Positions 1-19,981 of a stretch of 42,736 bases of DNA are shown piece after piece. The DNA comes from a virus, in the UHGV virus genome UHGV-0389216; one strand, written 5' to 3'. A model generated the notes under the pieces. It did no database searches, was not told the origin of the DNA, and was given only the letters and a program-made list of their open reading frames with translations. The position numbers and the translations under genes are program-made. Positions within the stretch are counted from its first letter, which is position 1; the number at the start of each line of letters is the position of its first letter.

Positions 1-1
1 T

Positions 2-1058: not shown

Positions 1059-1060
1059 GC

Positions 1061-2122: not shown

Positions 2123-2125
2123 GCA

Positions 2126-2467: not shown

Positions 2468-2520
2468 TCACTCGTAATTATAATGTGATACTTCTACTTT
2501 CACGATAAGGAATTTGTCGC

Positions 2521-2760
2521 ATGTTCGGATTTGATAAATTAATAACTCCAAAAATCATCAACGTTCTGTATGGCATCACAATGTTACTTCTGGTTGTTGC
2601 CGCCATTATAACGTTTGTTAATGGGAAGGCTGCTGGCGCTTTAGTGCTTTTGTTATGTGCTGTATTTTGCCGAATATTCTTTGAGTGCATCATGGTTTCA
2701 TTTAAAAACAATGAGTATCTTCGCCGAATAGCTGAAGCGTTAGAAGCAAACAAGCAGTAA
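2521..2760 (+). CDS. small two-helix membrane protein (moron)
   Basis: 79 aa with two hydrophobic segments (ITMLLLVVAAIITFV; ALVLLLCAVFCRIFF); AT-rich upstream region; followed by terminator. Confidence 0.45.
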   Translation: MFGFDKLITPKIINVLYGITMLLLVVAAIITFVNGKAAGALVLLLCAVFCRIFFECIMVSFKNNEYLRRIAEALEANKQ

Positions 2761-2778
2761 TGAAACTTCAATAATGAA

Positions 2779-2800
2779 CCCGCCACCCGGCGGGTTTTTT
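2779..2800 (+). terminator. rho-independent terminator
   Basis: CCCGCC-ACCC-GGCGGG hairpin followed by TTTTTT. Confidence 0.7.
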
Positions 2801-2819
2801 GCTTTCTGGAGCCTACTAA

Positions 2820-3572: not shown

Positions 3573-3925
3573 TGCGATACAGACGTGAAGACGCCGATGG
3601 CGATTACACCTTTGGCAGCGGTGATGACACCTGGCTGATTAACTCACCGGAGGCCGTGGCGCAGGCGGTAAAAACGCGATTCGAATTGTGGTATGGGCAA
3701 TGGTTTCTCGACACCACCGAAGGGACTCCGTGGATCCAGTCCGTGCTCGGTAAGCAGAAGCCGGAAACCTACAACCTGGCGATCCGTAAGCGCATCCTCG
3801 AAACGCAGGGCGTTAAATCAATCCTCTCTTTCAATACGACGGTGGATACCACGACCCGACGTGTCATGTTTTCCGCTGAAATCGACACTCTTTATGGAAT
3901 AACGACTGTTACATCGGAGGCGTAA
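3572..3925 (+). CDS. small baseplate protein (gpW/gp25-like, putative)
   Basis: 117 aa; start overlaps previous stop (TGATG); conserved V-W-J-I type order. Confidence 0.45.
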   Translation: MRYRREDADGDYTFGSGDDTWLINSPEAVAQAVKTRFELWYGQWFLDTTEGTPWIQSVLGKQKPETYNLAIRKRILETQGVKSILSFNTTVDTTTRRVMFSAEIDTLYGITTVTSEA

Positions 3926-5124: not shown

Positions 5125-5801
5125 GCAAATACACCGAACTAATCACGAACTACCACGCCACCAAACCTAAATTTCTTGCACATGTTGATCTGATGACCCG
5201 GCCGCTTATTGATGTTGCGGCTGCCACCAGAGGGCTGATTACTGCATTTGATATTGACTCTGCGGTTGGTGTGCAACTTGACATTCTGGGATTGTGGATC
5301 GGACGTAGCCGTGTTGTCAGCCAGCCTATCTCAGGTGTCTATTTCAGCTGGGATACCGACGGGCTTGGATATGATCAGGGTGTATGGCAGGGACCATACG
5401 ATCCTGATTTAGGATACATGTATCTCAGCGATGAAACTTATCGTGTCATTCTTAAAGCGAAGATTGCGATTAATAACTGGGACGGACGGAATGATTCGCT
5501 TCCGGCAATTCTTGACGCGGCAACAGCAGGATCCGGGCTGCGAATGCAGATAGTCGATAACCAGGACATGACGATATCGGTCTGGGTCTTTCCTGATACT
5601 GATATTTCAGATGTATCGCGTGAGTTAATTGCGGCAATTAAACAGGGGTATCTCACAGTAAAAGCCGCCGGGGTATGGGCGGGTGGCATTGAAACACCTT
5701 CTGTGGAAACCCCATCGGAAGGTTCAAAATTTTTTGGTTTTGATATGGATAACGAATTCATCAGTGGTTTTGATGTAGGGGCATGGGGAGTATTACTCTG
5801 A
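5121..5801 (+). CDS. baseplate/tail protein I-like
   Basis: 226 aa; ATGA overlap with J-like gene; precedes tail fibre gene. Confidence 0.45.
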   Translation: MSKYTELITNYHATKPKFLAHVDLMTRPLIDVAAATRGLITAFDIDSAVGVQLDILGLWIGRSRVVSQPISGVYFSWDTDGLGYDQGVWQGPYDPDLGYMYLSDETYRVILKAKIAINNWDGRNDSLPAILDAATAGSGLRMQIVDNQDMTISVWVFPDTDISDVSRELIAAIKQGYLTVKAAGVWAGGIETPSVETPSEGSKFFGFDMDNEFISGFDVGAWGVLL

Positions 5802-6868
5802 TGGCAAAAAATGACTTTAAAGCATTCGCAACGGGTAAAAATGCCAATGTTATGCCGCAGGAGGAATGGGAAGCGTTGCCTGCGCTTTTATCCGGATTTA
5901 CAGCAGGGAAAGCATCCAGTGCGCAGGTGAACAAAGCCATTCGACAGGCCAGCTTTATTACGGCAGCGCTTGCACAGTACACAGCTAATAAAAGTGGGCT
6001 GGATGTGCTTGATGATGGTGACCTGAACGGGTTTATCTCCAAAATGGAAGCGGCTTTGGGGAAGGATTTCCAGGCGCTTGACGCCACGCTCACTGCACTG
6101 GCAGGCCTTGCCACTGCGGCAGACAAACTTCCGTATTTTACGGGGAATGATACAGCCAGCCTGACAACCCTGACTAACGTTGGACGGAATATTCTGGATA
6201 AAGCAAGCACACAGGCGGTTATTCAATATCTTGGTCTGAGCGATGCAAGTGGATACGTTGGACGCTGGCTGAATACCCGGGTTTTCACCTCATCAGGTAC
6301 GTACACCCCGACGCCAGGAACAAAACGGATCAGGGTCACAATAACGGGCGGCGGTGGCGGAGGGGGCGGCTGCAAGGCTACATCCAATAATGAAACGTTT
6401 TTCGGTGCTGGCGGTGGGGCCGGTGGAACAATAATTTCAATAATGACCCCGACACAGAATAGTTATCCAGTCACTATCGGCGCAGGTGGGGCCGGTGGTG
6501 TTAGTGCAACGTACGGCATCAATGGCGGTAATAGCTTATTCGCATCGTTAATTGCTCCTGGTGGCGCAGGCGGCGGAAAGTCAGGAGTCACAAACACAAA
6601 TGGTGGTAACGGAGGTGTGCCGAGTACTGGCAATATCAATATCATTGGTGGATGTGGAGGCGACGGTCAGTCCGGAAATATCGGCGTCAGCGGTGAAGGC
6701 GGAACATCGTACTGGGGAGGTGGTGGACGCGCAGGCGCTGGCGGTGGCGTTAGCGGTAAGGCATATGGTTCAGGCGGAGGTGGTGCATACGATGCTGGTT
6801 ATAGCGGAACCAGTATGACGGGCGGGAAAGGCGCTTCAGGGATTTGTATTATCGAGGAGTTTGCATAA
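5801..6868 (+). CDS. tail fibre protein with glycine-rich C-terminal domain
   Basis: ATG at 5801 overlaps previous stop (TGATG). N-terminus MAKNDFKAF...; C-terminal half is GGxGG-rich (TGGGGGGGGC...GAGGAGG...GGNGG). Confidence 0.6.
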   Translation: MAKNDFKAFATGKNANVMPQEEWEALPALLSGFTAGKASSAQVNKAIRQASFITAALAQYTANKSGLDVLDDGDLNGFISKMEAALGKDFQALDATLTALAGLATAADKLPYFTGNDTASLTTLTNVGRNILDKASTQAVIQYLGLSDASGYVGRWLNTRVFTSSGTYTPTPGTKRIRVTITGGGGGGGGCKATSNNETFFGAGGGAGGTIISIMTPTQNSYPVTIGAGGAGGVSATYGINGGNSLFASLIAPGGAGGGKSGVTNTNGGNGGVPSTGNINIIGGCGGDGQSGNIGVSGEGGTSYWGGGGRAGAGGGVSGKAYGSGGGGAYDAGYSGTSMTGGKGASGICIIEEFA

Positions 6869-7284
6869 TGAATGCGTCATATGCAGTTATTGAAAATGGG
6901 ATGGTTGTGAATGTCATTGTCTGGGATGGCGAGGCTGAATTCACAGTGCCGGATAATCAGCAGCTCATTGATATTTCTGATATCAGTGAGCATCCCGGAA
7001 TCGGCTGGGCGTATTCAGACGGGGGATTTACTGCGCCGCTCCCTCCGGAACGTTCTCATGATGAACTGGTAGCTGACGCTGAACAGAAAAAACAGTCGTT
7101 GGTAGACGCAGCAATGGTCAATATCAGCGTGATTCAGTTAAAGCTGCAGGCCGGGCGCAAACTGACGCAAGAAGAAACTACCCGACTTAACGTTGTGCTG
7201 GATTATATCGACGCTGTGACGGCAACAGATACCAGCACTGCACCGGATATTGAGTGGCCGGATGAACCGTGCTTCGCTGAATAA
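6868..7284 (+). CDS. tail fibre assembly protein (Tfa-like)
   Basis: 138 aa from ATG 6868 (TAATG overlap with fibre gene); C-terminal ...DIEWPDEP resembles Tfa chaperones; last gene of tail block. Confidence 0.5.
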   Translation: MNASYAVIENGMVVNVIVWDGEAEFTVPDNQQLIDISDISEHPGIGWAYSDGGFTAPLPPERSHDELVADAEQKKQSLVDAAMVNISVIQLKLQAGRKLTQEETTRLNVVLDYIDAVTATDTSTAPDIEWPDEPCFAE

Positions 7285-7539
7285 AATCTGTTGAGAAGTG
7301 GTTTAATTGTATCTCAATTCTTTTTGAGTAATAAAAGTAGGACAAAGCTGAGACAAATAAAGCCTCGCAATGGTTGCAGGCTTTGAACACTTCTATATTG
7401 AGTATGTGACGAGGTTTTGTTTATTTACATTCTATATATTGATCTCAATTTTTATGAATGTAGAGCATACGGATAAACCGCAGTGTGATTAGAGTCAAGG
7501 TAATAACTGTTGACTCTAATCATTGCAAAGTAACTTTAT

Positions 7540-8607
7540 TTATTGAAATTTATCTCGGATGAATTGCTGCGATGGTTTTTCAATGAATATATATGACATA
7601 TAGCTAATTGCCATTAATGTAAGCATGAATAAAATGAATACATTGGAGCTGTAAAAAAGATCGCGTCCATAGCCAATCCTGTCAGCTAAATAAACAGCAA
7701 TGATTTGCAAAGGAAAATGTAAAAGATAAGATGAATAACTGATATCACCCAACCATTCAATTTTCTTCCCAAAGTCGTTTCGCATTGCGCTAATTGATAC
7801 AAGGAAAAATATTATGGAGGTAAATCCAAATAAAATAATTGAGAATATATCTGCTACTTGCAGGATAAAAATAACTCCCCACGAGATTAATAGAAAAACA
7901 CAAGCGAAAATAAAAAATGATTTTGTGCCAATATTTTTTATGAACGCAATCGTAATTTTATAGGTCAGACCACCAATAAAGAAAGAGAATGCGCCGATCA
8001 TTATGGGATTGTTAATTTTGAAAAAGTAGTACGACAATGCAACTATTAAAATTGATATGAATGTTGTTTTTGATGTGAACTTGCATAATATAAAAAATAT
8101 CATGTACATAAGTACTTCAATCGACACGGACCATGTCGGTGCGTTGAAGGACCAACCTCGCTCAAATCCCCATGATTGAATCATCAATAAATTCAGAATG
8201 GCATGGTAAATGTCATTCATAGGATAAACAAAAAAATAATTATAACTTTTAAAGAAAATAATTTGTAATATTACCACGACAGCAAATGTAAATATATAAA
8301 GTGGATATAATCTACTGACACGGTTAACTATAAAAGTTTTTGCTGAGGTTTTATTGCTGTGTATATTGTCAGCGTATAGATAAAAAAATATGAATCCAGA
8401 AATCATAAAAAACAATTCGACAGCATATAAACCGTAATGATAAAAGACGGAAAAAAATTCATAAAAAGGTTGGCGGTTTATGATTATGTCAGATGCAGCA
8501 TTCTTTTTCATAAAAAAATGTTGCCAATGCCATAACACAACTGAAAGTGCGGCAAATCCTCTCAGAACATCTAGGGTATATATTCTTTTCCCAAAAACAT
8601 TCGTCAC
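7540..8607 (-). CDS. acyltransferase family 3 membrane protein, O-antigen acetylase-like
   Basis: 355 aa, GTG start. N-terminal LDVLRGFAALSVVLWHWQHFF motif and about 10 hydrophobic helices as in Oac/OafA-type acyltransferases; strongly AT-rich; opposite strand to tail genes. Confidence 0.75.
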   Translation of the reverse strand: MTNVFGKRIYTLDVLRGFAALSVVLWHWQHFFMKKNAASDIIINRQPFYEFFSVFYHYGLYAVELFFMISGFIFFYLYADNIHSNKTSAKTFIVNRVSRLYPLYIFTFAVVVILQIIFFKSYNYFFVYPMNDIYHAILNLLMIQSWGFERGWSFNAPTWSVSIEVLMYMIFFILCKFTSKTTFISILIVALSYYFFKINNPIMIGAFSFFIGGLTYKITIAFIKNIGTKSFFIFACVFLLISWGVIFILQVADIFSIILFGFTSIIFFLVSISAMRNDFGKKIEWLGDISYSSYLLHFPLQIIAVYLADRIGYGRDLFYSSNVFILFMLTLMAISYMSYIFIEKPSQQFIRDKFQ

Positions 8608-8849
8608 AACGAACCTCTTTTAATAAAGTCAAGTGATAATGAAAAGTAAATATTGTAAACGAAAAAACACTGGACTGGAACATATATCTCTGCCTGTAAT
8701 TTAACCAAGATAGTTTTACTAACATAATCATAATTCGTTTATATGAACACATCCCGTTTGCAAGGCATCCATTGTTATGACATTGACGGTAGGTTGCAGC
8801 TTTATATCCGGCTTTTTGCAGCCGCAAAGCTGCTAGCCCCTATGTAATT

Positions 8850-10260
8850 CGCTGACTCACACCTCATTTCCTGTGCGGGCTTTAAGCTCAAAGAATTATT
8901 CAGGTTTAGCGAGTCACGGTCTTACCTGTCGTTGTCATCACTCTGGCCGCCAGAGCAACCTTTCAGTATTCACCCTTTCATTAAAAGTTAATATTTATCG
9001 GTATCAGCGATTAATATGGTCTGATACTGACATGATTCTTGTCGTATTTACTTCCATGAGCTGCTATCGCCCATACTGTTCGTGCCAGTTTGTTTGCCAT
9101 GGCGACGATTGCCACGCTGGCTGGACGACGTTTTTTCAGTTCGGTTATCCACGGACCAGGTTCTTTGGTCAGTAATGCTGCCGCCCTTGCGCCATGAATA
9201 AACAAGGCTCGCAGATATGTATCACCACGTTTGCTTATCCCCAGCAGGCGGATTTTCCCTCCTGAGCCAGTCTGTTTGGGCACCAGACCAACATAAGCCG
9301 CGAACTCTCGCCCTGATTTAAACGCTGATGCTTCCCCCATGGTGGCCACCGCTGCCGTCGCAATAAGTGGCCCAACGCCGGGAATATCCAGCAACCGCTT
9401 ACAGGTTTCATTCTGTTTCGCCACGCTGGTAAGCTGTTTTTCAATATCCTCTATCAGTGAGTCCAGCTCATTCAGCCGGTTGTACTGGTTTTCCAGCACA
9501 GTAATGAGATACGGTGGCAGTCTCTCTTTCATCCGCTCCAGTGCTTCAGGGAACTCCCGCTCCATTGCTGCCCGACCTTTGTGAATTGTTTCACCAAATT
9601 CCAGGAGCGTGCCGTGCAGGGAGTTAATCTGCATGGTGCGGAACTTCACCAGTTGTCTGCGGGAACGATGCAGAACCAGTACCGACTGCTGTTCTTCTGT
9701 TTTGACAGCGATTTCCTTGCCGGGCTGTTGTACTGCCATCCAGATAGCCCGGGCATCCATAACATCGTTTTTATTACCCATGACGAACGCTTTAACGAAG
9801 CGGGCCTGCAACAACCGGACTTTATGACCCAGCTTTGTCAGTTCACGTGCCCAGTGCTGCGAGCCTCCACAGGCCTCCATACCAATCAGGCAGGGTTCCC
9901 GATTACAGAAGAACATCAGAAAATCCTGACGACGCAACTGCTTATCAATCACTTCACCTGTGTGCTCGTCGATGAAGTGAACCTGAATGACATGTTTTGC
10001 GATATCAACGCCAACCGGTGTATATTTCATTTGTGGAGTCTCCAGTCTGAAGGAGCTTTATGCATCCCGTATTGGGCACTATGATGCCGGAAATCTGCGA
10101 GGCTCCACACCTTCCTGTATTTCCCTTCATCTATCACTGTGCACCTTACTTAATGGGGGGGATGTGTTCATTACATTTCATGTATACCAGATGAAAGTGC
10201 ATGTTCTATGAAACAGGGTTTTGCCTGGAGTTTGAAGGGTTTTAAAGATTATACCTGTTT
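8850..10260 (-). mobile_element. IS110-family insertion sequence (boundaries approximate)
   Basis: Contains a single IS110-type transposase ORF with about 160 bp 3' and about 230 bp 5' non-coding flank. Exact ends not determinable by eye. Confidence 0.5.
9011..10030 (-). CDS. IS110-family transposase (DEDD-type)
   Basis: 339 aa starting MKYTPVGVDIAKHVIQVHFIDEHTGEV with ...GMEACGG...NDVMDARA..., the N-terminal DEDD fold pattern of IS110/IS1111 transposases; C-terminal domain follows. Confidence 0.85.
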   Translation of the reverse strand: MKYTPVGVDIAKHVIQVHFIDEHTGEVIDKQLRRQDFLMFFCNREPCLIGMEACGGSQHWARELTKLGHKVRLLQARFVKAFVMGNKNDVMDARAIWMAVQQPGKEIAVKTEEQQSVLVLHRSRRQLVKFRTMQINSLHGTLLEFGETIHKGRAAMEREFPEALERMKERLPPYLITVLENQYNRLNELDSLIEDIEKQLTSVAKQNETCKRLLDIPGVGPLIATAAVATMGEASAFKSGREFAAYVGLVPKQTGSGGKIRLLGISKRGDTYLRALFIHGARAAALLTKEPGPWITELKKRRPASVAIVAMANKLARTVWAIAAHGSKYDKNHVSIRPY

Positions 10261-10628
10261 AATCTGCTACCCATGTTTTTTGATATTATCCACCGCACAC
10301 GATACCGGATGCCAGGTAAACTGATTTGCTGGCACAAAGTCGCTGAGAATTCTTTACCAACAATATATTACCACATCTTTTCCCGCACAGTTTCGGCAAC
10401 AGAATCAGCGGGCGGCGGTCATCAATATTCACTAGACATTGATCTGCCGTACTATCTGACCTGTATTTTGCTGAGACTGCTTATTTCCAGTTTTTACTAG
10501 TGCTGTACTGGTACTGCCCAATCATGATTGGTGGGGGCGGAGTTGAGACCGCAGCCACGTCGTATGCAAGAACGTGCCACGGCTGGCTGATAAGCTTGTA
10601 AAAATCTTGAACAGGGAGTGGAGCATTT

Positions 10629-11276
10629 CTATGAAGCTAATTTGTTTAATTTCATTTGTAGCGACTTTACTTCTTGGTCGATAATGTTGAATCCCTTATT
10701 GACTGCATCTCTTAGCTCTGCATCAATATTTTTTATCCCTTGAGCATAATCTACCATTACATCTATTTTTGCATCATGTAATCTTTTATACATGGTTTTA
10801 TCTTTGTTATTGTCAGCCATACCAATAAGGATTTTTTCATAATCCTCAATGAGTTTGTTGTTTCCTTTAAATGATTGTATTAATGACCGTGAATATGTGT
10901 AGATATTAATTATTGAGTCTCTGGCAGAATCATTTAGTTTTGCAATGACATTCGCATTTTGCTCATAGAATGTGAAATTATCATCCCCTACAGGGAAAGT
11001 GAGAATTAACATCTGTCCGGGTTTGATATTATCAATGTGTGTTTTCATCCTTTTATTATATAAATTGATTAGGGTGAAAACTTCTCCCTTAACACCTTTT
11101 AATACTGAAAGTTGCAATTCAAGGGATTCTCTTTCTGTCTCTACTTTAGACAGCTTAGCTTGTTGGGTAACTCCTTTTAGGGTAAACCATCCGCCAATAA
11201 GAGTACCAACTAGAGCAGTGAGGGAGGAGGATAACCATCCAGGAATGCTATTTAAAAGATTACTAAATTCACTCAT
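10629..11276 (-). CDS. hypothetical membrane-anchored coiled-coil protein
   Basis: 215 aa; N-terminal hydrophobic helix (LSSSLTALVGTLIGGWFTL) then Lys/Glu-rich helical region; AT-rich; no family recognised. Confidence 0.45.
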   Translation of the reverse strand: MSEFSNLLNSIPGWLSSSLTALVGTLIGGWFTLKGVTQQAKLSKVETERESLELQLSVLKGVKGEVFTLINLYNKRMKTHIDNIKPGQMLILTFPVGDDNFTFYEQNANVIAKLNDSARDSIINIYTYSRSLIQSFKGNNKLIEDYEKILIGMADNNKDKTMYKRLHDAKIDVMVDYAQGIKNIDAELRDAVNKGFNIIDQEVKSLQMKLNKLAS

Positions 11277-11334
11277 TATAAGTACTCGCTAATATTGAAC
11301 GATATATATATCAAATTATTATGAAACTCGTCAG

Positions 11335-11613
11335 CTACTGGAGAAGGCTACCTGAACTTCGAGCTATTCCTGCATCCATATAGTTGATGGTCTTCTGGAG
11401 CTCTTCGATTAGGGCAACAGCTTTTGCTCGAGAAATGCATATTAGTTGATCCGGAAATTCTTGTAAGGGCCAGTTTGGTATACAGGCCATGTTATCAGTG
11501 AAGGATGCAGACAAGTAAACTTCATTGGTAACCAGAGAATAGCTTACCTCAAAATTGGTGAGTTCCGGCAAACTGCTAACGTTTGACTCTTTTCTGCGCA
11601 TAATATTATCCAT
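11335..11613 (-). CDS. hypothetical protein (start uncertain)
   Basis: Open frame runs to 11778, but the first 55 codons translate the tandem 12-mer repeat (LLNVLLNVLL). ATG at 11613 (MDNIMRRK...) is proposed as start; no clear SD. Confidence 0.35.
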   Translation of the reverse strand: MDNIMRRKESNVSSLPELTNFEVSYSLVTNEVYLSASFTDNMACIPNWPLQEFPDQLICISRAKAVALIEELQKTINYMDAGIARSSGSLLQ

Positions 11614-11750
11614 GACTGTAATTATATACAGGTGATGGTCTTCAATTTCGAAGAGGGAGTCAAGGGGAGTCTCAAATGAACCGTTATAGAAAGGGGGGGA
11701 TCTTTGTGTTGCTGAACTTATGCAAAATTTTTCGCACCATAAATCCAACA

Positions 11751-11782
11751 ACACATTCAATAACACATTCAATAACACATTA
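11751..11782. repeat. tandem direct repeat, 12-bp unit ACACATTCAATA (2.7 copies)
   Basis: ACACATTCAATA ACACATTCAATA ACACATTA read directly, in the AT-rich region upstream of int. Confidence 0.7.
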
Positions 11783-12081
11783 CCGTATCATCATGAAAAT
11801 AAATATATTTTTATTTAATTTCACACATATCACAATTAATACAGCGTTTAGTAATTAGTAAAGACATTTCAATGGATTACCGTTAAATCATTTTAAAATC
11901 AGTAAGTTGTATCGAGTTTGTATGCTTTACTGTCATTAACTTACTGTATGTTGATCCAGTGTATTTAACCTTGATAAACTCAGTCCAGCAACACAAAACC
12001 GCAACACATTGCATTTTGTCCCGTAGAAAAGACTTGTATGTGTGAGCTTGTTTTCTGCGCCTACGCAGATAAGGATTGAGA

Positions 12082-13479
12082 ATGCCGCGCACTGTAACAC
12101 ATAATCCGGATAGCCCCAATAATGACGATGTTTTAGCCGCATCTGAAAAATGGGACGCCTGTAAACCCCCCTATACCAGCGCACACATGAAAATCTGTGT
12201 TGCTGCCGCCAAAATCATCCTCGCTGCTTCCGGCGTGGCTCGCCGTTCCAAATACGAAAAAGAGAACTATCTCCGTATCGATTTCAGCAAAGCCGGTAAG
12301 GTTACATTTTACGCCGAGTTTCCAAAAAAGATGGGCCTCAAGGGTAAAAAGCTCGGCGAGTGGCCGGAGCTCGCTATCCAGCTGGCGCGCGAAAAAGCGC
12401 TAGGTATGGCTGACTGTGGCCTGCGGGCAGAGTCCGTACATGCAGCGCTGGAAATGTACCGGGATGACCTCAAAGCCAAAGTCGCCCGGCAGAAGCTGAG
12501 CCCGGACAGTTTCACAACCTACGGGGTGCGTATCGACCGGATTAAAGCAACGTTCGGCGAGCGCGAGGTGTTCAGCGACGTAACATACAATCGGCTGGTG
12601 GAAGTGCTGGACGAGTGGATCGCTACTCGCTCGAACAATAACGCCCTGGAGTTGTTTGCCGAGCTCCGTCGGTTCTGGAAGTTCTGCGCACCTACTCTTT
12701 GCAACGGCCGCAATGTTGCCGCCAGTCTGCCAGATGATTATGTTTCCTCCCGCGTACAGAAACCTACCCCCACACGGCTTTTTACCGATATTGAATCAAT
12801 CGCCCGACTCTGGCTCAATGTTGCTGCCTGCACCTCTGTACACCAGAAGAATGCTGTTCGCTTCATGATCATCACTGGCGTTCGTCCGATTAATGTCCAT
12901 AACCTGCGCTGGGACTACGTTCACGAGGAGGCTGGTGAAATTGTTTATCCGGAAGGGGTTATCGGCATGCGAGGGGCTATGAAAACACAAAAGGCTTTCC
13001 GCCTGCCGATAACGCCTGAGATCCGGCGGATTATCGACGAGCAGAAAGCCTGGCGTGATTCAGTTCCTGAGTGCAACAGGGATTATGTATTTTTGCAGCC
13101 ACGTGATCCAATGCAGCCATTTTCAAAACGATCACTGGATAAGCTGGTGAAAACATACAGCCCGGACGGGGCTGTAAAAGGAATAAAACATGATGGGACT
13201 GTTAAAGGGAAAGACGGTGCATTTAATACGATGTGCCGTAAATTCCTTAAGAGCAATGTTATTGCCTTGATGAAGGAAAGAGGCTATTCCCGATCAGACC
13301 GAAGGGAAATCAGCCTCCTTTGCCTTCACCACTCCAGTAAGTCAGATGACCCGATGGCAGAACATTACGACTTTTCTGATGAGATTTTACAGGAAGAGAT
13401 TGCGTTAAAGCGCGAAGCTTTCGAGGCTCACGAGCGGAGCATACTTGCGCAGGTGGCATTGCTACGGCGGCGAGGTTAA
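12082..13479 (+). CDS. int: tyrosine-type site-specific integrase
   Basis: ATG 12082 preceded by AAGGA. Contains ...MIITGVRPINVHNLRW... and C-terminal ...LCLHHSSKSD...AEHY consistent with R/H/Y catalytic boxes; adjacent convergent AlpA/Xis-like gene. Confidence 0.7.
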   Translation: MPRTVTHNPDSPNNDDVLAASEKWDACKPPYTSAHMKICVAAAKIILAASGVARRSKYEKENYLRIDFSKAGKVTFYAEFPKKMGLKGKKLGEWPELAIQLAREKALGMADCGLRAESVHAALEMYRDDLKAKVARQKLSPDSFTTYGVRIDRIKATFGEREVFSDVTYNRLVEVLDEWIATRSNNNALELFAELRRFWKFCAPTLCNGRNVAASLPDDYVSSRVQKPTPTRLFTDIESIARLWLNVAACTSVHQKNAVRFMIITGVRPINVHNLRWDYVHEEAGEIVYPEGVIGMRGAMKTQKAFRLPITPEIRRIIDEQKAWRDSVPECNRDYVFLQPRDPMQPFSKRSLDKLVKTYSPDGAVKGIKHDGTVKGKDGAFNTMCRKFLKSNVIALMKERGYSRSDRREISLLCLHHSSKSDDPMAEHYDFSDEILQEEIALKREAFEAHERSILAQVALLRRRG

Positions 13480-13676
13480 TACCGGCTGCGACACTTTTGA
13501 ATAAAAGCATCGACATTGCGGCGCTCATAACGAACTACTTTTGCACTGAAACGAATTGGTGCCAGGATAGCCCGATGACGATGCTTAATATTCCACTCAC
13601 ATAGCGTTTTCTGTGTAATACCTAACTTTTGGCATACTTCATCCGGGGTGAGTAAATCGTCGGGTTTCTCGCTCAT
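13476..13676 (-). CDS. AlpA/Xis-family small DNA-binding protein (putative excisionase)
   Basis: 66 aa; ...LLTPDEVCQKLGITQKTLCEW... is a MerR/AlpA-like helix-turn-helix; last gene of early-left operon, abutting int. Confidence 0.65.
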   Translation of the reverse strand: MSEKPDDLLTPDEVCQKLGITQKTLCEWNIKHRHRAILAPIRFSAKVVRYERRNVDAFIQKCRSRY

Positions 13677-15067
13677 GCTATACCTCTCTTTTTCATGGCA
13701 TCGAGCAGGATGTCCTGCACTGTTCGTTTTGAGTTGCGCCGTTCCATCACCATTTCGTCCATAGTGTCGGCGGCGATAATGTGGTGAATGAACACCGGGC
13801 GGTTGTGTCCGGCCTGTATCTGCCTGGTGGGGCCGATACGTTCAATAATTTGCTGATATTGCTCCAGGTCCCACCAGTGTGAGAAAAATACCAGTATATT
13901 TCCGCCGTCCTGCATGTTCAGACCGTGGCCCGCGCTGGCTGGGTGTGCAAAGAGAACAGGAATCTTTCCGGAATTCCAGTCGCGCAGTGTCTGTGGATCC
14001 TGGTCGAGGTGACGACCGCGAGGGAATGCTTTAAGCAAGCGTTCAAGATCGTGTTTCCAGTGATAAGCAACCAGCACAGGTGCGCCAGCTGCTTCGGTCA
14101 GTATGCTGTCCAGCGCCTGCAGTTTGGTGTCATGCAGTTCTGACCAACTTCCGGTGTCGTCTGTGTATACTGCGCCACTGGCGATTTGCAGACACTTCAG
14201 TGTCTTTGCCGCGGCGTTCGGTGCTTCGATGCCTTCGCCATTCAGCTCGAGGAACATTTCCTTTTCCATTTCACGATACTGCTGACGGGCCTTCGGCGGC
14301 ATATCCACGCGGATTACGTTATGGATGGGGTCTTTGATATCGAACCAGTCGGCCGCATCCAGCGATAGGGTCACATCGGCTAACGCTCGCTGTATTTCAC
14401 CCTGTGAGTGAGCAAACGGCTCCAGTTTGGTCCAGCTCTGCCCCGGAAACTGTATCGAGTTGAACCAGCGTGAGGTAAACGCGCCGTAAGTGCGTCCGAG
14501 ACGTTGCCCCTGGTCCACAAACCACGCTTGTCCCCACAAATCTACCAGGCCGTTCGGTGCTGGCGTACCAGTGAGATTTATCCAGCGCCGGACATACTTA
14601 TGCGCCACTTTGCCCAGCGCCGCCGCGCGCTTACCACCACCTCGCAGCCGGAAGGATTTTAGCCGGGTGCTTTCATCTGGAATGACAGTACCGAACGGCC
14701 ATCGTTCTCCCAATTCCTCAACCAGCCAGACAAGGTTATCGTAGTTGATGGTGAACACGCTCGCGTTGCTGTTCGCCAGCGCTGCAGAGCGCGCTTTGGC
14801 GTTACCAACAATAGGCTGCACCTCGATATTGCGCAGATGCCCCCATTTTAGCGCTTCATCCGGCCATGTGCTTGCTGCAACGCGTAGCGGCGCGAGGACC
14901 AGTGCGGGGCGTGTTTCTGCCCCTGCCATAAAGAGATTTTCCAGCGCAGTGAGCGTTGCCACGGTTTTACCCATTCCCATACCTGCCCAGATGTTGCCGC
15001 GCAGGGTTTCGGTTTCGTGGTTGATAATGAGATCTTGGTAGGGGCGAGGTATATATTTTGGGGGCAT
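13673..15067 (-). CDS. SNF2/DEAD-like superfamily 2 helicase
   Basis: 464 aa; Walker A GMGMGKT, Walker B/DEAD-like VIPDESTRLK, C-terminal helicase motifs; coupled to downstream gene. Confidence 0.8.
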   Translation of the reverse strand: MPPKYIPRPYQDLIINHETETLRGNIWAGMGMGKTVATLTALENLFMAGAETRPALVLAPLRVAASTWPDEALKWGHLRNIEVQPIVGNAKARSAALANSNASVFTINYDNLVWLVEELGERWPFGTVIPDESTRLKSFRLRGGGKRAAALGKVAHKYVRRWINLTGTPAPNGLVDLWGQAWFVDQGQRLGRTYGAFTSRWFNSIQFPGQSWTKLEPFAHSQGEIQRALADVTLSLDAADWFDIKDPIHNVIRVDMPPKARQQYREMEKEMFLELNGEGIEAPNAAAKTLKCLQIASGAVYTDDTGSWSELHDTKLQALDSILTEAAGAPVLVAYHWKHDLERLLKAFPRGRHLDQDPQTLRDWNSGKIPVLFAHPASAGHGLNMQDGGNILVFFSHWWDLEQYQQIIERIGPTRQIQAGHNRPVFIHHIIAADTMDEMVMERRNSKRTVQDILLDAMKKRGIA

Positions 15068-15081
15068 ATAATATGGCTCCT

Positions 15082-15117
15082 AAACAACAAAAGGCCAATT
15101 TAGGCCTTTTGTTGTTT
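15082..15117. terminator. long perfect hairpin, probable terminator for the 305-aa accessory gene
   Basis: AAACAACAAAAGGCC-AATTTA-GGCCTTTTGTTGTTT, 15-bp stem with U-rich 3' arm on either strand. Confidence 0.5.
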
Positions 15118-15129
15118 TAAAAATGTTAT

Positions 15130-16047
15130 TTATAATAGTGCTGTTACTATTGCATCTTTAAAAATATTTTCTTCTTCATTTATTAAAGGTGATGACAGAT
15201 GAATAATTACTTCTTTTCCTGTCAATACTATTTGCTCGACTTGAAATCCTGCGTTGTGTAGTCTTTGGCGTAACTTTTCTAGTGCTGATTTTGATATACT
15301 AAATCCTTCACTCCTTATAGTATAACTGGCAACTCCATTTTTAATAATATCTACAGAGTTGTCAATTTCCTGCTGCGAGTAATTTTTCGGTGAGTCGAAA
15401 AATCTGGATTTTGTCGTTGCTGTTGCCCTAAGAGATATCAATAATGATTTGATATCTTTAATCTCAGATGCCAGATACTCAGTTTCTGATACTTCTTTCT
15501 GGTCTAGTTGTGCAACTTTGAAAGTGCCAAAATGTTTGAGGAATGTTGTGTATTCAGGATCAGTTACTGACTTTAAATATGTTTCTTTTATCTTGCTCGC
15601 AAGTCTTTCTTTGAATAAATTGATTGATTGGTATCTTAAATCCGAAGGGTACTCTAAATGTTCAATTGATGAAATGTCAAAGCTATAAGGAGTGCGCTCG
15701 TCCTTAATAATTACGGTCGGTTTGTCAAATGCGAGACGCATTCCTAATTCAAACATTACATTAGCGTTTCGAGCACTTATATCGCAAACAACTATGGGGT
15801 TTTCATAAAGATTTTGAACAATTCGTTTTTGTATTACTGCAACATCATCATCTGAACTTACCAAATTTGCCTTGAATCCGGCATCATTTGATGCTTCACA
15901 AATAATGTCATGAACATTTCTCCAATGTCCAGTGGGATAACCTTCTATGTCCGCAATTGGCATAATAATGCCGCATATATGAGGTGGCATATTTTTGTTG
16001 TCTTTTACATCATCTTGGTTTATTTCTTTCGTTTGTTGCTTAGCCAT
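15130..16047 (-). CDS. accessory protein with N-terminal Rossmann-like TIR/NDT-like domain and unknown C-terminal domain
   Basis: 305 aa. Residues about 20-140 show alternating hydrophobic strand/helix pattern with ...PIVVCDISARNANVMFELGMRLAFDKPTVII..., the NV-x-x-E-x-G motif class seen in nucleoside 2-deoxyribosyltransferase-like and TIR-like folds; AT-rich; hairpin terminator downstream. Confidence 0.45.
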   Translation of the reverse strand: MAKQQTKEINQDDVKDNKNMPPHICGIIMPIADIEGYPTGHWRNVHDIICEASNDAGFKANLVSSDDDVAVIQKRIVQNLYENPIVVCDISARNANVMFELGMRLAFDKPTVIIKDERTPYSFDISSIEHLEYPSDLRYQSINLFKERLASKIKETYLKSVTDPEYTTFLKHFGTFKVAQLDQKEVSETEYLASEIKDIKSLLISLRATATTKSRFFDSPKNYSQQEIDNSVDIIKNGVASYTIRSEGFSISKSALEKLRQRLHNAGFQVEQIVLTGKEVIIHLSSPLINEEENIFKDAIVTALL

Positions 16048-16062
16048 AGCTTACACAGACTC

Positions 16063-16347
16063 CTATTGTAATTTTTTGCCTAATATACATGAAAGCTCCT
16101 TACTATCCAGTACTACCACGGTAAAGCCCAGTTTTCGCAGACGTTCATGCTCGCGCAACTGATCAGGTCGTGGTGGTTTGCCTGGTGCTTTGCATTCGAC
16201 AAAGACGATGCGACCGCCGGGTAGCAGAACAATGCGATCTGGTACCGAGCGGAGACCGGGAGATACGAACTTAAAGGCAACCCCGCCAGCCTTTTTTACT
16301 TCAGCGACGAGGTGCTTTTCGATTAGGTTTTCACGTTCATAGGCCAT
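16063..16347 (-). CDS. VRR-NUC domain nuclease
   Basis: 94 aa with ...RIVFVECKAPGKPPRPDQLREHERLRKLGFTVVVL..., characteristic of VRR-NUC (PD-(D/E)XK) proteins. Confidence 0.7.
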   Translation of the reverse strand: MAYERENLIEKHLVAEVKKAGGVAFKFVSPGLRSVPDRIVLLPGGRIVFVECKAPGKPPRPDQLREHERLRKLGFTVVVLDSKELSCILGKKLQ

Positions 16348-16541
16348 TAGCTTTCGCCTTCCTGCTTTTTGCGTTTCTTCATGCAGATAGCGCAGTTCTC
16401 AGGATGGTCATGCCATTCGTCAATCCTGATACCTGTGAACATCCATTTTCCGCATAGTGATATGGCTTCCCCCGAATTAAAGAAATGTGCTTTTTTCGAC
16501 AGGGCGGGGAACCCCCAACCTTTATTATCGATATTAGACAT
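16347..16541 (-). CDS. small Cys/His-containing protein, function unknown
   Basis: 64 aa; stop overlaps VRR-NUC start (ATGA); AAGGAGGTGGACG precedes ATG 16541; C/H cluster WHDHPENCAIC. Confidence 0.4.
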   Translation of the reverse strand: MSNIDNKGWGFPALSKKAHFFNSGEAISLCGKWMFTGIRIDEWHDHPENCAICMKKRKKQEGES

Positions 16542-16730
16542 CGTCCACCTCCTTACGCTTTTCGCGCATGTTCTGCATCAGACAAAAATCAAACCGACGT
16601 TCGCTTTGGCCCAGACCTGCATCGCCCGGTCGTACCCGCTGGACTGTTCAAGGCGCAAAGCCTCCCGCGCAGTCCGGTAATAAAGCGGACTGTCCCGGTA
16701 TTTAAATGACATAGGGTTTTTATTCCCAAA

Positions 16731-16753
16731 TAAAAAACCCCGCAATGCAGGGT
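16731..16753 (-). terminator. rho-independent terminator (minus strand) after TIR-like gene
   Basis: Minus-strand CCCTGC-ATT-GCGGGG hairpin followed by TTTTTT. Confidence 0.55.
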
Positions 16754-16776
16754 TGTAATCAACAATAAGGGGGTAA

Positions 16777-17538
16777 TTACGAGGAAGCGTTAGCTATTTG
16801 AGCTTGTGTAAATTCGAAACCAGAATTTTGTAACCGTTGCACTAGACGAGGAACTGTTTCACGTACATGGTCGTTGAAATTCAGATACAAAATCCCGTTA
16901 GCATCAGAAGGCTGTTCTAGGTGCTGTTTCTGAAGGATTGCTACATTGCTGCGCCCTAAGGACGAAAGAAGCATACCCATCTCGAGTACAACGTTCTGTC
17001 TTGCGCGGGGTTGGATTTCTGCTTCACCGGCGCGCTTTGAGTATCCCATATCATCAGGTGTCAAAAGAACAATCCCGAAACGGGTAGCAGTTTGTCCTTG
17101 CCCAATTTCACGTTCAAGCTCTTCAATAATGGTGAGTCCAGTCCCTCCCGTATTCTGCAAAATGAAATGGTCTGGTAATCCAAGTTTATGAAGGATTAGC
17201 TCAAGTTGTTCCTTTGCAGTATGGTCATGGCCGTGAACAATGAATATCTTTTTGGGAAGCTCAGATGGCTGTTCTACGGCTAGTGGTGTTGCCGTGGGGG
17301 GCGTTCCTAAATGGGACATTATTGCAGTTTCAACATTGGGACGTTCTTGAGGGTTACCTTGAAACTGAATGGTCCGGGTGGTGTAAAGGTTAACAATTAC
17401 GCCATTCGTTAAACGATAGCAGTCATAAGTCTCACGCTGTTCGTGGGAAAAATTGGTGAACCCACACTCCCTCAAAAAGTCAGGAAAAGATTCTCTCGGG
17501 TATGGATAGGTGATCGGCATTTCAGTTAGTTCCTGCAT
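16777..17538 (-). CDS. TIR-like (Cap12/PycTIR-type) nucleotide-binding domain protein with unassigned N-terminal domain
   Basis: 253 aa; C-terminal domain KKIFIVHGHDH...GIVLLTPDD...RQNVVLEMGMLLSSLGRSNVAIL matches the TIR-like predicted nucleotide-binding fold signature as I recall it; N-terminal 85 aa unassigned. Confidence 0.5.
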   Translation of the reverse strand: MQELTEMPITYPYPRESFPDFLRECGFTNFSHEQRETYDCYRLTNGVIVNLYTTRTIQFQGNPQERPNVETAIMSHLGTPPTATPLAVEQPSELPKKIFIVHGHDHTAKEQLELILHKLGLPDHFILQNTGGTGLTIIEELEREIGQGQTATRFGIVLLTPDDMGYSKRAGEAEIQPRARQNVVLEMGMLLSSLGRSNVAILQKQHLEQPSDANGILYLNFNDHVRETVPRLVQRLQNSGFEFTQAQIANASS

Positions 17539-19699: not shown

Positions 19700-19733
19700 A
19701 TGGGCAAACTAGCTAATAAAGTTGAGGAAAAAA

Positions 19734-19937
19734 ATGTCTGAATCTAAGTTCAAACCTGGAGACCGCGTACAACATCTTTCTGGTGGGCCTGTTCTTGTGG
19801 TTGTTAGCACAGGATATATTCCTGCAACAGCTTTTAATGGCGACTTCATTCGCGTAACTTGTGAATTTTGGGATGAATCTAAAAAAGCTTTCGTAAAACA
19901 GGATTTTGTTGAAACTTCTCTTGAAGATTACGAATAA
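19734..19937 (+). CDS. DUF2158/YodC-like small protein
   Basis: ATG 19734 preceded by GAGG; KPGDRVQHLSGGPVLVVVS motif; only plus-strand gene inside the minus-strand operon. Confidence 0.55.
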   Translation: MSESKFKPGDRVQHLSGGPVLVVVSTGYIPATAFNGDFIRVTCEFWDESKKAFVKQDFVETSLEDYE

Positions 19938-19954
19938 CTCATAACACAATCCTC

Positions 19955-19976
19955 AAAGCGCCCCTAAGGGCGCTTT
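19955..19976. terminator. bidirectional hairpin terminator
   Basis: AAAGCGCCC-CTAA-GGGCGCTTT perfect 9-bp stem between convergent gene ends. Confidence 0.55.
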
Positions 19977-19981
19977 GGCGT

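What the first reader, a model, noticed from the sequence alone, without database searches (positions are those of the whole stretch)
15130..16047. Second AT-rich accessory gene sharing the NVxxExG motif, with a novel C-terminal domain
Residues about 20-140 of the 305-aa product read as a Rossmann-like domain ending in PIVVCDISARNANVMFELGMRLAFDKPTVII. The 253-aa protein two genes away carries the same R-x-NV-x-x-E-x-G-M pattern (RQNVVLEMGML), which is the catalytic-glutamate region of nucleoside 2-deoxyribosyltransferase-like and TIR-like enzymes. Here the domain is N-terminal and fused to an unassigned 160-aa C-terminal domain. The gene is visibly more AT-rich than its neighbours and is followed by a perfect 15-bp hairpin (15082-15117). 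Two differently arranged paralogous nucleotide-processing domains bracketing a VRR-NUC nuclease inside a replisome operon may form one functional system (sensor/effector pair, or a DNA/nucleotide modification pathway).
Basis: partly seen in the sequence, partly recalled or inferred. Interest (0 to 1): 0.75.

Follow-up and report, generated by a model that had tools for sequence, protein, structure and literature searches.

The report
Mobile TIR/NDT-like enzyme, hypervariable tail
This AT-rich prophage gene is a self-contained mobile cassette from a very large uncharacterised family that joins a conserved TIR/NDT-like nucleotide-cleaving domain to a hypervariable C-terminal domain, so it is most likely a single-protein anti-phage sensor-effector and not a partner of the nearby TIR and VRR-NUC genes.

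Summary
A 305-aa ORF lies at 15130-16047 (-), with GC 0.34 against about 0.50-0.55 in its flanks, and a perfect 15-bp hairpin follows it. The window is an E. coli temperate phage.

- **Sequence:** all 39 family members tested hit a PADLOC CBASS TIR-effector model (down to 1e-8). E100 in NVMFELG is invariant. No Pfam model reaches threshold.
- **Family:** about 9,700 clusters at 50% identity. N-domains are about 60% identical, and C-domains about 11% identical with a similar predicted topology.
- **Contexts:** prophage hot spots, a single-gene Vibrio integron cassette and small integrase islands. The gene is AT-richer than its flanks in 68 of 69 viral loci.
- **The proposed three-gene system is not supported.** TIR and target assort independently on this phage backbone. 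Only 4 of 80 viral loci (all this phage) carry the TIR within 10 kb. VRR-NUC is a backbone gene.

Best reading (about 0.45): a stand-alone abortive-infection protein with an N-glycosidase core, a stalk helix and a variable sensor domain. It is built like the DUF4062 systems Swarozyc and Evangelion but is not a DUF4062 member. No function was tested.

The parts
15073..16062 (-). Approximate extent of the inserted cargo module (ribosome-binding site, gene, hairpin) between the backbone genes VRR-NUC and SNF2 helicase
   Evidence: In E. coli genomes that lack the gene, homology to the window stops about 5 nt upstream of the helicase start and resumes at VRR-NUC. Other cargo occupies this slot in relatives: a 265-aa ORF on the other strand, Dcm plus PI-PLC, Rha plus Arc.
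15130..16047 (-). CDS of 305 aa (WP_001551510 in RefSeq, annotated as hypothetical protein)
   Evidence: ORF list. Annotation in E. coli Rb-50. 4,466 homologues at 90% clustering and 9,729 cluster representatives at 50%.
16060..16064 (-). AGGAG Shine-Dalgarno-like sequence overlapping the VRR-NUC stop codon, 12 nt before the ATG
   Evidence: Read directly from the sequence.
15529..15981 (-). N-terminal TIR/NDT-like flavodoxin-fold domain (residues 23-173), conserved across the family
15748..15750 (-). Codon of Glu100 in the NVMFELG motif, the putative catalytic glutamate
   Evidence: Invariant in A1 and A3, and retained in distant Gram-positive phage homologues and in the neighbouring TIR protein. 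It aligns with E186 of the PDC-S35 TIR family. Its catalytic role is inferred from TIR/NDT enzymology and was not tested.
15424..15486 (-). Long helix (residues 188-208) between two low-confidence linkers, a putative stalk or oligomerisation helix
   Evidence: AF2 models of the target and of P0035 both show it.
15133..15375 (-). Hypervariable C-terminal alpha/beta domain (residues 225-305, order beta-beta-alpha-beta-beta-alpha), the putative sensor
   Evidence: pLDDT is about 88-94. Only 21 of 266 family sequences share it detectably. Median identity is 11%. dN is 0.30 against 0.04 in the N-domain versus K. aerogenes. P0035 has a similar beta-alpha-beta-beta-alpha topology at pLDDT above 90.
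15082..15117 (-). Perfect 15-bp hairpin with a GGCC core and A-tract/U-tract arms, a likely intrinsic and possibly bidirectional terminator that travels with the cassette
   Evidence: Sequence. Fold z = -5.7. The K. aerogenes orthologue has A10GGCC-loop-GGCCT11, and the Providencia orthologue has a different stem plus TTTT. The hairpin is absent from relatives with other cargo in the slot.
15619..15630 (-). (CAAT)x3 tetranucleotide repeat inside the CDS (codons Q140-N143)
   Evidence: It is expanded to (CAAT)x4 in phage vB_EcoM-606R2, which frameshifts the gene.

Best explanation
The gene is an autonomous, horizontally mobile single-gene module and belongs to a very large uncharacterised family.

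**Architecture**
- A short disordered N-terminus.
- A strongly conserved TIR/NDT-superfamily domain with an invariant glutamate (E100).
- A stalk helix.
- A small C-terminal alpha/beta domain whose sequence is hypervariable.

**Proposed mechanism (inferred, not tested)**
- The protein is a prophage-borne abortive-infection or superinfection-exclusion factor.
- The variable C-domain recognises a component of an infecting phage.
- Binding relieves autoinhibition or drives oligomerisation through the stalk.
- The N-domain then cleaves an N-glycosidic bond of an essential nucleotide. NAD+ is the most likely substrate, as in TIR NADases. A (deoxy)nucleotide, as in NDT/DNPH1/MilB enzymes, is the alternative.
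- This stops phage replication.

**What is shown and what is inferred**
- Shown: the fold, superfamily-level homology, the conservation pattern, mobility, independence from neighbouring genes, and AT-richness.
- Inferred: enzymatic activity, the substrate, the sensor role of the C-domain, and the defence phenotype.
For: **Domain assignment**
- The AF2 model has pLDDT 75, with a flavodoxin-like N-domain.
- The BFVD top hits are roughly 300-aa phage proteins labelled CMP/hydroxymethyl-CMP hydrolase, then NDTs.
- PADLOC CBASS TIR-effector model PDLC00733 is hit by 39 of 39 members, E 1e-6 to 1e-8.
- Pfam NDT is hit weakly by 22 of 39 members and CAP12-TIR by 9 of 39.
- hhalign against the PDC-S35 TIR family gives E 1.5e-4 over NVxxExGM...HLExPSD.

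**Enzyme-like conservation**
- About 55 invariant positions include D89, N94, N96, E100, K109, D116, D124, E129, H130, D136 and R138.
- The family motif xNPNVxxELG survives in Streptococcus and Staphylococcus phage homologues.

**Conserved core with a variable tail**
- N-domain identity is 60% and C-domain identity 11%.
- dN is 0.04 in the N-domain and 0.30 in the C-domain.
- Two unrelated C-domain sequences have a similar predicted topology.

**Autonomy and mobility**
- A Vibrio homologue is a single-gene integron cassette bounded by attC-type repeats, in an array that also holds a BstA cassette.
- Klebsiella homologues sit in lambdoid nin regions.
- Pseudomonas and Serratia homologues sit in small integrase islands.
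- 159 IMG/VR contigs encode a relative.
- The gene is AT-richer than its flanks in 68 of 69 loci, median -0.11.
- In this E. coli prophage family it occupies a variable slot.
- In Streptococcus SM1 and Staphylococcus SA13, distant homologues lie antisense to the early genes, as prophage-expressed morons usually do.

**Precedent**
- Single proteins with a conserved TIR-like NADase core, a helical stalk and a diversified auxiliary region give abortive defence when a phage protein binds the auxiliary domain. These are Swarozyc (bioRxiv 10.64898/2026.05.01.722283) and Evangelion (bioRxiv 10.64898/2026.06.25.731849), read.

**Possible cost of the gene**
- There are two independent inactivations among near-identical copies: a (CAAT) repeat frameshift and an IS1 insertion.
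Against: - No experiment or published characterisation of this family was found.
- No curated model reaches threshold. PF10137 scores 16.2 bits against a cut-off of 24.7. PF05014 scores 13.2 against 28.8. NCBIfam finds nothing.
- In this phage the gene is co-oriented with, and translationally close to, the early replication operon. No promoter stands out above chance. Expression in the lysogen is therefore unproven.
- In 35 of 65 viral loci the gene is co-oriented with both neighbours. That would also fit a phage-benefit gene.
- Known defence genes were found near only one of the non-phage contexts sampled.
- The substrate (NAD+ or nucleotide) cannot be decided from sequence.
Confidence: 0.45

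Rival explanations
1. Phage-benefit counter-defence enzyme or decoy. The TIR/NDT-like core would degrade or sequester host immune nucleotide signals, or poison host TIR assemblies. The variable C-domain would target different host defence proteins. The gene would be expressed with the early operon.
For: - In this phage the gene sits in the early-left operon directly after VRR-NUC with a coupled ribosome-binding site.
- About half of viral loci have it co-oriented with both neighbours.
- Klebsiella prophages that carry it also carry Acb2/Tad1-like genes elsewhere.
- Fast-evolving interaction domains are also typical of anti-defence proteins (general knowledge).
Against: - The family also occurs as a chromosomal integron cassette and in small non-phage islands.
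- In Gram-positive phages it lies antisense to the early genes.
- Strong conservation of a full catalytic-looking core together with a stalk resembles characterised defence effectors.
Confidence: 0.15
2. Nucleotide-metabolism or DNA-modification enzyme of the phage replication module. It would act as an NDT- or DNPH1/MilB-like (deoxy)nucleotide hydrolase or transferase that reshapes nucleotide pools or supplies modified bases for phage DNA.
For: - Pfam NDT is weakly hit in 22 of 39 members.
- MilB, DNPH1 and NDT are among the fold hits.
- The gene lies among polA, helicase and nuclease genes.
- Many relatives of this prophage carry a DUF4406 gene next to VRR-NUC. DUF4406 being NDT-like is my own knowledge and was not tested here.
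Against: - A hypervariable C-domain is not expected for a housekeeping nucleotide enzyme.
- The gene is dispensable and replaceable on the same backbone.
- It occurs without any replication genes in integron and island contexts.
- No partner modification genes are conserved next to it.
Confidence: 0.1
3. The 305-aa protein, the VRR-NUC nuclease and the 253-aa TIR protein would form one sensor/effector or modification system.
For: - Both cargo genes are present in the same relative positions in 24 E. coli genomes.
- Both are also present in a Providencia prophage whose backbone is only 73-79% identical.
- The two domains share two short motifs.
Against: - Assortment on the same backbone is independent. 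There are 13 E. coli genomes with TIR only, a K. aerogenes prophage and three IMG/VR loci with the target only, and many with neither.
- 76 of 80 viral loci lack the TIR.
- The TIR gene has its own terminator (16754-16736) and matches a stand-alone PADLOC candidate system, PDC-S35 (E 1e-108).
- VRR-NUC is backbone.
Confidence: 0.05
4. Non-enzymatic nucleotide-binding or scaffold protein. The TIR/NDT-like fold would serve only as a ligand sensor or oligomerisation module, for instance as a regulator of prophage induction.
For: - Fold matches to receiver and LacI-type ligand-binding domains are nearly as strong as those to TIR/NDT.
- No curated enzyme family is matched above threshold.
Against: - Invariant acidic, polar and His residues cluster around the canonical catalytic Glu position.
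- All members hit a TIR effector model.
- No DNA-binding or output domain was detected.
Confidence: 0.1

Closest known systems
Swarozyc (KpSwz) and Evangelion (Eva01): single-gene DUF4062 TIR-like NADase defence systems (bioRxiv 10.64898/2026.05.01.722283; 10.64898/2026.06.25.731849)
   Same: - Both are proteins of about 300-325 aa.
- Both have a short N-terminal tail, a conserved TIR-like core with a catalytic Glu near residue 87-100, a helical stalk, and a diversified C-terminal auxiliary region.
- Both are single-gene, spread by mobile elements, and have a patchy distribution.
   Different: - The core is a different sequence family. PF13271 is not matched by the target or by any of 39 relatives, whereas Eva01 from pMW2 matches it at 3e-26.
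- hhalign of the family against Eva01 gives probability 1%.
- The motifs differ: CGxxMPI and NPNVMFELG here, against F11, acidic-SYT and Q/W/E in Evangelion.
- No NADase or defence data exist for this family.
CAP12/Pycsar-type bacterial TIR domains (PF10137: CBASS TIR-STING Cap12, PycTIR, and the neighbouring PDC-S35 protein)
   Same: - The NVxxExG(M) and (H)LExPSD motifs are shared.
- The best sequence-model hit is a CBASS TIR effector.
   Different: - The Pfam score is below the gathering cut-off (16.2 against 24.7 bits).
- The beta3-alphaC loop is much shorter.
- No cyclase partner and no STING, SAVED or other cyclic-nucleotide sensor domain is present.
- The C-terminal domain is unrelated.
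Nucleoside 2-deoxyribosyltransferase-like N-glycosidases (PF05014 NDT, DNPH1/Rcl, MilB)
   Same: - The segment VVCDISxxNxNVMFELGxxLAxxKPxxII follows the NDT/DNPH1 pattern of strand, loop, x-E-L/I-G-x-A-x-x-x-G-K-P and strand. The DNPH1/NDT pattern is recalled from my own knowledge.
- PF05014 is weakly hit by 22 of 39 members.
   Different: - All hits are sub-threshold (best E 0.0037).
- The first-strand nucleotide-binding motif differs.
- The protein is twice as long, with a stalk and a variable domain that those enzymes lack.
CapRel(SJ46)-type fused toxin-sensor defence proteins (recalled from my own knowledge, not tested here)
   Same: - Both are prophage-encoded single proteins.
- Both pair a conserved enzymatic N-terminal part with a rapidly diverging C-terminal domain, which in CapRel directly binds a phage structural protein.
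   Different: The enzymatic domain is unrelated: a RelA/SpoT-like tRNA pyrophosphokinase there, a TIR/NDT-like fold here.

Membership tests
CAP12/Pycsar TIR (Pfam PF10137) | Match to the family HMM at or above the gathering score (24.7 bits) | tested here: not met
   The target scores 16.2 bits, E 0.011, over residues 44-112. Only 9 of 39 relatives hit at all, and all are sub-threshold. The neighbouring 253-aa protein scores 108 bits.
CAP12/Pycsar TIR (Pfam PF10137) | Conserved glutamate in the NVxxExG helix after strand C, and a TIR-like fold | tested here: met
   [not shown]
CBASS / Pycsar effector | Operon partner cyclase (CD-NTase or pyrimidine cyclase), or a fused cyclic-nucleotide sensor domain | tested here: not met
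   No such domain is in the protein. None is among the called neighbours in six independent contexts.
Nucleoside 2-deoxyribosyltransferase (Pfam PF05014) | Match to the family HMM at or above the gathering score (28.8 bits) | tested here: not met
   The target scores 13.2 bits, E 0.1. 22 of 39 relatives hit, with best E 0.0037.
Nucleoside 2-deoxyribosyltransferase-like N-glycosidases | N-glycosidic bond cleavage through the conserved Glu nucleophile | not testable with these tools
   Only the position and invariance of E100 are shown. Activity needs biochemistry.
DUF4062 defence proteins (Swarozyc / Evangelion) | DUF4062 (PF13271) core domain | tested here: not met
   There is no PF13271 hit for the target at E<=1 or for 39 relatives at E<=0.1. 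The positive control Eva01 (pMW2, L104:3863-4837) hits at 3.1e-26. hhalign of A1 against Eva01 gives probability 1.1%.
DUF4062 defence proteins (Swarozyc / Evangelion) | Architecture of a conserved TIR-like core, a helical stalk and a diversified auxiliary region in one mobile gene | tested here: met
   AF2 models. Identity is 60% in the N-domain and 11% in the C-domain. Single-gene cassette contexts.
DUF4062 defence proteins (Swarozyc / Evangelion) | Phage-triggered NAD+ depletion and abortive infection | not testable with these tools
   This requires infection assays and NAD+ measurement.
PADLOC candidate system PDC-S35 | Match to the PDC-S35 HMMs | tested here: not met
   The target has no PDC-S35 hit. 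The neighbour at 16777-17538 hits PDLC05003 at 1.3e-108.
Thoeris (ThsB TIR with a ThsA effector) | ThsB-type TIR model match and an adjacent ThsA | tested here: not met
   The PADLOC scan gives only PDLC00733, a CBASS TIR effector. No SIR2, SLOG or Macro neighbour is conserved. The SIR2 gene in the Rb-50 prophage variant lies in another slot and is absent from the window.
   4 of 80 viral loci have the TIR, and all four are this phage. 7 of 80 have VRR-NUC. All four presence/absence combinations occur on the backbone.

The most novel reading that the evidence does not exclude
This may be the founding example of a very large, unrecognised family of single-protein immune receptors, about 10,000 clusters at 50% identity, spanning Proteobacteria and possibly Firmicutes phages. 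In this reading the hypervariable C-domain directly binds phage proteins. The NDT-like core would not simply burn NAD+. It would instead cleave (modified) deoxynucleotides or make a base- or ribose-derived product, which would be a new effector chemistry for abortive infection.
Probability: 0.15. Interest if true: 0.75.

Novelty: new variant of a known kind. Interest (0 to 1): 0.5.

Why it matters
- **A candidate defence family.** If the family is defensive, it adds a third, sequence-distinct lineage of TIR-like core plus variable sensor proteins, beside canonical TIRs and DUF4062. It has thousands of members in prophages, integron cassettes and genomic islands of clinically important Enterobacterales, Vibrio and Pseudomonas.
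- **A missing entry in the tools tried.** PADLOC v2, Pfam and NCBIfam all fail to assign it.
- **A route to triggers.** The natural library of C-domains on a near-constant core is a ready-made system for mapping which phage proteins trigger immunity.
- **A correction for annotation.** Two TIR-superfamily genes that sit two genes apart in a replication operon need not form a system. Here they are independent cargo in two separate hot spots.

Tried and rejected
- **Direct paralogy with the TIR neighbour.** BLASTP finds only 14 of 42 identities around the motif, E 0.04. The profile against the single sequence gives probability 2.8%. Profile against profile gives 51%. I kept this only as remote superfamily homology.
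- **PDB sequence search.** Neither the single sequence nor the profile gave a meaningful hit.
- **Foldseek against PDB.** It returned only weak, generic flavodoxin-fold hits.
- **afdb50 fold library.** It was unavailable.
- **Homologue search with the C-domain alone.** It returned nothing, although identical full-length proteins are in the database. I treat this as a limit of the word index and not as evidence. A local phmmer run showed that 21 of 266 family sequences share the domain.
- **dN/dS.** dS was saturated, so only dN is reported and no claim of positive selection is made.
- **Promoter scan.** A TGGATA-16-TATATT site lies 35 nt upstream of the ATG (16109-16082). The number of promoter-like sites equals the shuffle expectation, and this site lies in conserved VRR-NUC coding sequence. 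It is not used as evidence.
- **Literature.** Searches for PDC-S35, the phage name, the RefSeq accession, NDT-like defence and integron defence papers found no characterisation of this family.
- **RNA genes.** Rfam and tRNA scans of the window found nothing.
- **DUF4062 membership.** Considered and rejected.
- **The 'RNA helicase' name.** Some database sources give relatives this name. No helicase domain was found, so I disregarded it.
Full report
**1. What is in the sequence.**

The ORF at 15130..16047 on the minus strand exists as described. It has an ATG start and encodes 305 aa. An AGGAG sequence overlaps the stop codon of the upstream VRR-NUC gene, 12 nt before the ATG.

The gene is strongly AT-rich, with GC 0.344 and GC3 0.258. 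The flanking genes are much higher: SNF2 helicase 0.553, VRR-NUC 0.491 and polA 0.537.

The hairpin at 15082-15117 is a perfect 15-bp stem with a 6-nt loop. As RNA on the coding strand it folds at -23.7 kcal/mol, z = -5.7, and none of 200 shuffles folds as well. It has a GGCC core with an A-tract and a U-tract as arms. The simple terminator scan did not call it. No Rfam family or tRNA lies in the window.

**2. Where the window comes from.**

The region is 99% identical to three induced E. coli phages: vB_EcoM-606R2, -689R2 and -611R5. It is also 99% identical to a prophage integrated next to yfhL in E. coli chromosomes.

The gene order on the minus strand is polA, a 253-aa TIR protein, a frameshifted ANR-family gene, a 64-aa ORF, VRR-NUC, the target, SNF2 helicase and an HTH gene. 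The integrase follows on the plus strand.

About 159 of 5,426 complete E. coli genomes carry this backbone. Only 24 carry the target. In the others the helicase|VRR-NUC slot holds different cargo in either orientation. Examples are a 265-aa ORF, Dcm plus a PI-PLC protein, Rha plus two Arc proteins, and a SAM methyltransferase.

The hairpin is absent from those variants. A similar A/T-armed GGCC hairpin follows the K. aerogenes orthologue, and a different stem plus T-run follows the Providencia orthologue. The mobile unit is therefore roughly 15073-16062, containing the ribosome-binding site, the gene and the hairpin.

**3. What the protein is.**

- **Curated families.** No curated family reaches threshold.
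  - Pfam gives CAP12/Pycsar TIR at E 0.011 and NDT at E 0.1.
  - NCBIfam gives nothing.
  - PHROGs gives two families of unknown function.
- **PADLOC.** The CBASS TIR-effector model PDLC00733 is hit at 1e-6 by the target, and by all 39 family members tested, down to 1e-8.
- **Structure model.** The AF2 model has pLDDT 75.
  - Residues 23-173 form a five-stranded parallel alpha/beta domain.
  - A low-confidence linker follows, then a long helix at 188-208, then a second linker.
  - A confident C-terminal domain (pLDDT about 90) has the order beta-beta-alpha-beta-beta-alpha over residues 232-304.
- **Fold searches.**
  - Foldseek against PDB is weak and generic, with DNPH1, NDT and PdTIR among the hits.
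  - In BFVD the best hits are roughly 300-aa phage proteins labelled CMP/hydroxymethyl-CMP hydrolase, followed by NDTs.
- **Catalytic position.** E100 in NVMFELG sits in the helix after the third strand. That is the position of the catalytic Glu in both TIR NADases and NDT-type glycosidases, by established knowledge. It is invariant in the family and in distant Gram-positive phage homologues.

I conclude, at about 0.8 confidence, that the N-domain is a distinct lineage of the TIR/NDT superfamily and probably an N-glycosidase.

**4. The family.**

There are 4,466 homologous clusters at 90% identity. At 50% identity there are 9,729 cluster representatives, 1,395 of them with E<=1e-30. Nearly all are about 300 aa.

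Median pairwise identity is 60% in the N-domain and 11% in the C-domain. Only 21 of 266 sampled members share the target's C-domain detectably. Against the K. aerogenes orthologue, dN is 0.04 in the N-domain and 0.30 in the C-domain. dS is saturated.

A model of a member with an unrelated C-terminal sequence (P0035) shows the same core, the same stalk helix and a confident beta-alpha-beta-beta-alpha C-domain. The fold therefore appears to be kept while the sequence diversifies.

**5. Contexts.**

| Host or source | Context |
|---|---|
| Klebsiella | nin region of lambdoid prophages |
| Pseudomonas | edge of a small integrase island |
| Serratia | next to an integrase remnant |
| Vibrio parahaemolyticus | single-gene cassette bounded by attC-type repeats, in an array of at least 24 repeats that also holds a BstA cassette |
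| Streptococcus SM1 and Staphylococcus SA13 | distant homologues antisense to the early or replication genes |
| IMG/VR | 159 contigs encode a relative |

In 68 of 69 distinct IMG/VR loci the gene is AT-richer than its flanks. The median difference is -0.11, across flank GC of 0.28-0.66.

**6. The proposed link to the TIR gene and VRR-NUC.**

The 253-aa neighbour is a bona fide PF10137 TIR (E 3e-31). It matches the stand-alone PADLOC candidate system PDC-S35 at E 1e-108. It has its own terminator-like site at 16754-16736.

Profile-profile comparison of the two families gives E 1.5e-4 and probability 51% over 32 columns. The shared motifs are NVxxExGM and HLExPSD. That is remote homology and not close paralogy.

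Co-occurrence favours independence.

- 37 E. coli genomes carry the TIR and 24 carry the target, so 13 have the TIR alone.
- The K. aerogenes prophage and three IMG/VR relatives of the backbone have the target without the TIR.
- Many backbones have neither gene.
- 76 of 80 viral loci with a family member lack the TIR.

One observation points the other way. A Providencia prophage whose backbone is 73-79% identical keeps both genes in the same slots. Its TIR is 65% identical, the target's N-domain is 67% identical, and the C-domain cannot be aligned. I read this as shared ancestry of the phage lineage, with later loss or replacement of either gene. VRR-NUC is a backbone gene.

**7. Mechanism and comparison with known systems.**

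The closest characterised analogues are the single-gene DUF4062 systems Swarozyc and Evangelion. Each has a conserved TIR-like NADase core, a helical stalk and a diversified auxiliary region. In Swarozyc the auxiliary domain binds the phage portal, and in Evangelion it depends on phage replication proteins. Activation depletes NAD+ and causes abortive infection.

The target has the same architecture but is not a DUF4062 protein.

- PF13271 is not matched by the target or by any of 39 relatives.
- The control Eva01 from pMW2 matches PF13271 at 3e-26.
- hhalign of the family against Eva01 gives probability 1%.

I therefore propose that it works like these systems, as a trigger-activated N-glycosidase with a variable sensor. 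I do not file it in their family. The substrate, the trigger and the phenotype are all inferred.

The rivals are a phage counter-defence enzyme, a nucleotide-metabolism enzyme, a non-catalytic binder and the three-gene system. They are scored in the Rival explanations section.

**8. Verdict.**

The domain assignment is supported at superfamily level. The multi-gene system is not supported.

The gene represents a large uncharacterised family, absent from the libraries searched here, that is a good candidate for a new variant of TIR-like single-protein immunity. I score interest as moderate (0.5). The architecture now has close precedents, but the family's size, its extreme split between a conserved N-domain and a variable C-domain, and its absence from the defence catalogue tried here make it worth testing.

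Noticed in passing
window 15619-15630 (-); phage ON470579.1 (L002 1458-2379): The target gene carries a (CAAT)x3 repeat. In phage vB_EcoM-606R2 it is (CAAT)x4, which frameshifts the gene into two annotated ORFs. This could reflect slipped-strand inactivation or a sequencing error.
   Followed up: partly
L103 (E. coli JNEC-KY203, NZ_AP045179.1 1259193-1261671): An IS1 element is inserted in the 5' part of the same gene. This is a second independent inactivation among near-identical copies and may hint at a fitness cost.
   Followed up: partly
window 16777-17538 (-), terminator-like site 16754-16736: The 253-aa neighbour is a PF10137 TIR protein that matches PADLOC candidate system PDC-S35 at E 1e-108. 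It has an uncharacterised N-terminal domain of about 95 aa and its own terminator. It is present in 37 E. coli genomes and absent from many relatives of the prophage. No paper mentioning PDC-S35 was found.
   Followed up: partly
window ~16534-16712 (-): An ANR-family regulator gene between the TIR gene and the 64-aa ORF is annotated as frameshifted in RefSeq copies (Rb-50 and strain 357900). It is intact in the O103:H2 relative.
   Followed up: no
window 19700-19981; L001 20756-22237: The polA|DUF2815 gap is a third variable slot. The window has only a 71-aa ORF (19722-19937, +). Phage 606R2 has a 209-aa ORF on the opposite strand. The Rb-50 prophage has a 493-aa SIR2-family gene there.
   Followed up: no
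L014 4580-4879 and many hits: Many relatives of this prophage encode a DUF4406 protein immediately next to VRR-NUC. I recall DUF4406 as an NDT-like family, which was not tested here. A nucleotide-glycosidase-like gene may therefore be a recurrent feature of this replication module.
   Followed up: no
window 7540-8607 (-), 9011-10030 (-), 10629-11276 (-), 11335-11778 (-): Low-GC cargo lies between the tail-fibre genes and the integrase.
- A membrane Acyl_transf_3 acyltransferase (GC about 0.30), possibly for O-antigen modification.
- An IS110-family transposase.
- Two ORFs of 215 aa and 147 aa with no Pfam or PADLOC hit.
   Followed up: partly
L021 4001-4660 (Streptococcus phage SM1 gp11); L022 3381-4031 (Staphylococcus phage SA13 gp16): Distant homologues of about 216-219 aa keep the xNPNVxxELG motif. 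They are encoded antisense to the surrounding early or replication genes in Gram-positive temperate phages.
   Followed up: partly
L009 (V. parahaemolyticus JANFTP010000010.1) 1-16822: This integron cassette array has at least 24 attC-type repeats. It carries the family member (8001-8822), a BstA cassette (12681-13553) and a protein with a weak HEPN-like PADLOC hit (11810-12475).
   Followed up: partly
L016 (Providencia alcalifaciens) 8658-10909: The TIR gene's GC follows the host (0.36 in Providencia, 0.45 in E. coli). The target gene stays at 0.34-0.35 in both. This suggests either recent transfer or a constraint that keeps the family AT-rich.
   Followed up: no
(tool behaviour): The word-indexed homologue search with the 106-aa C-domain returned no hit, although identical full-length proteins (P0001) are in the database. 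Negative results from that tool on short queries should not be trusted.
   Followed up: yes
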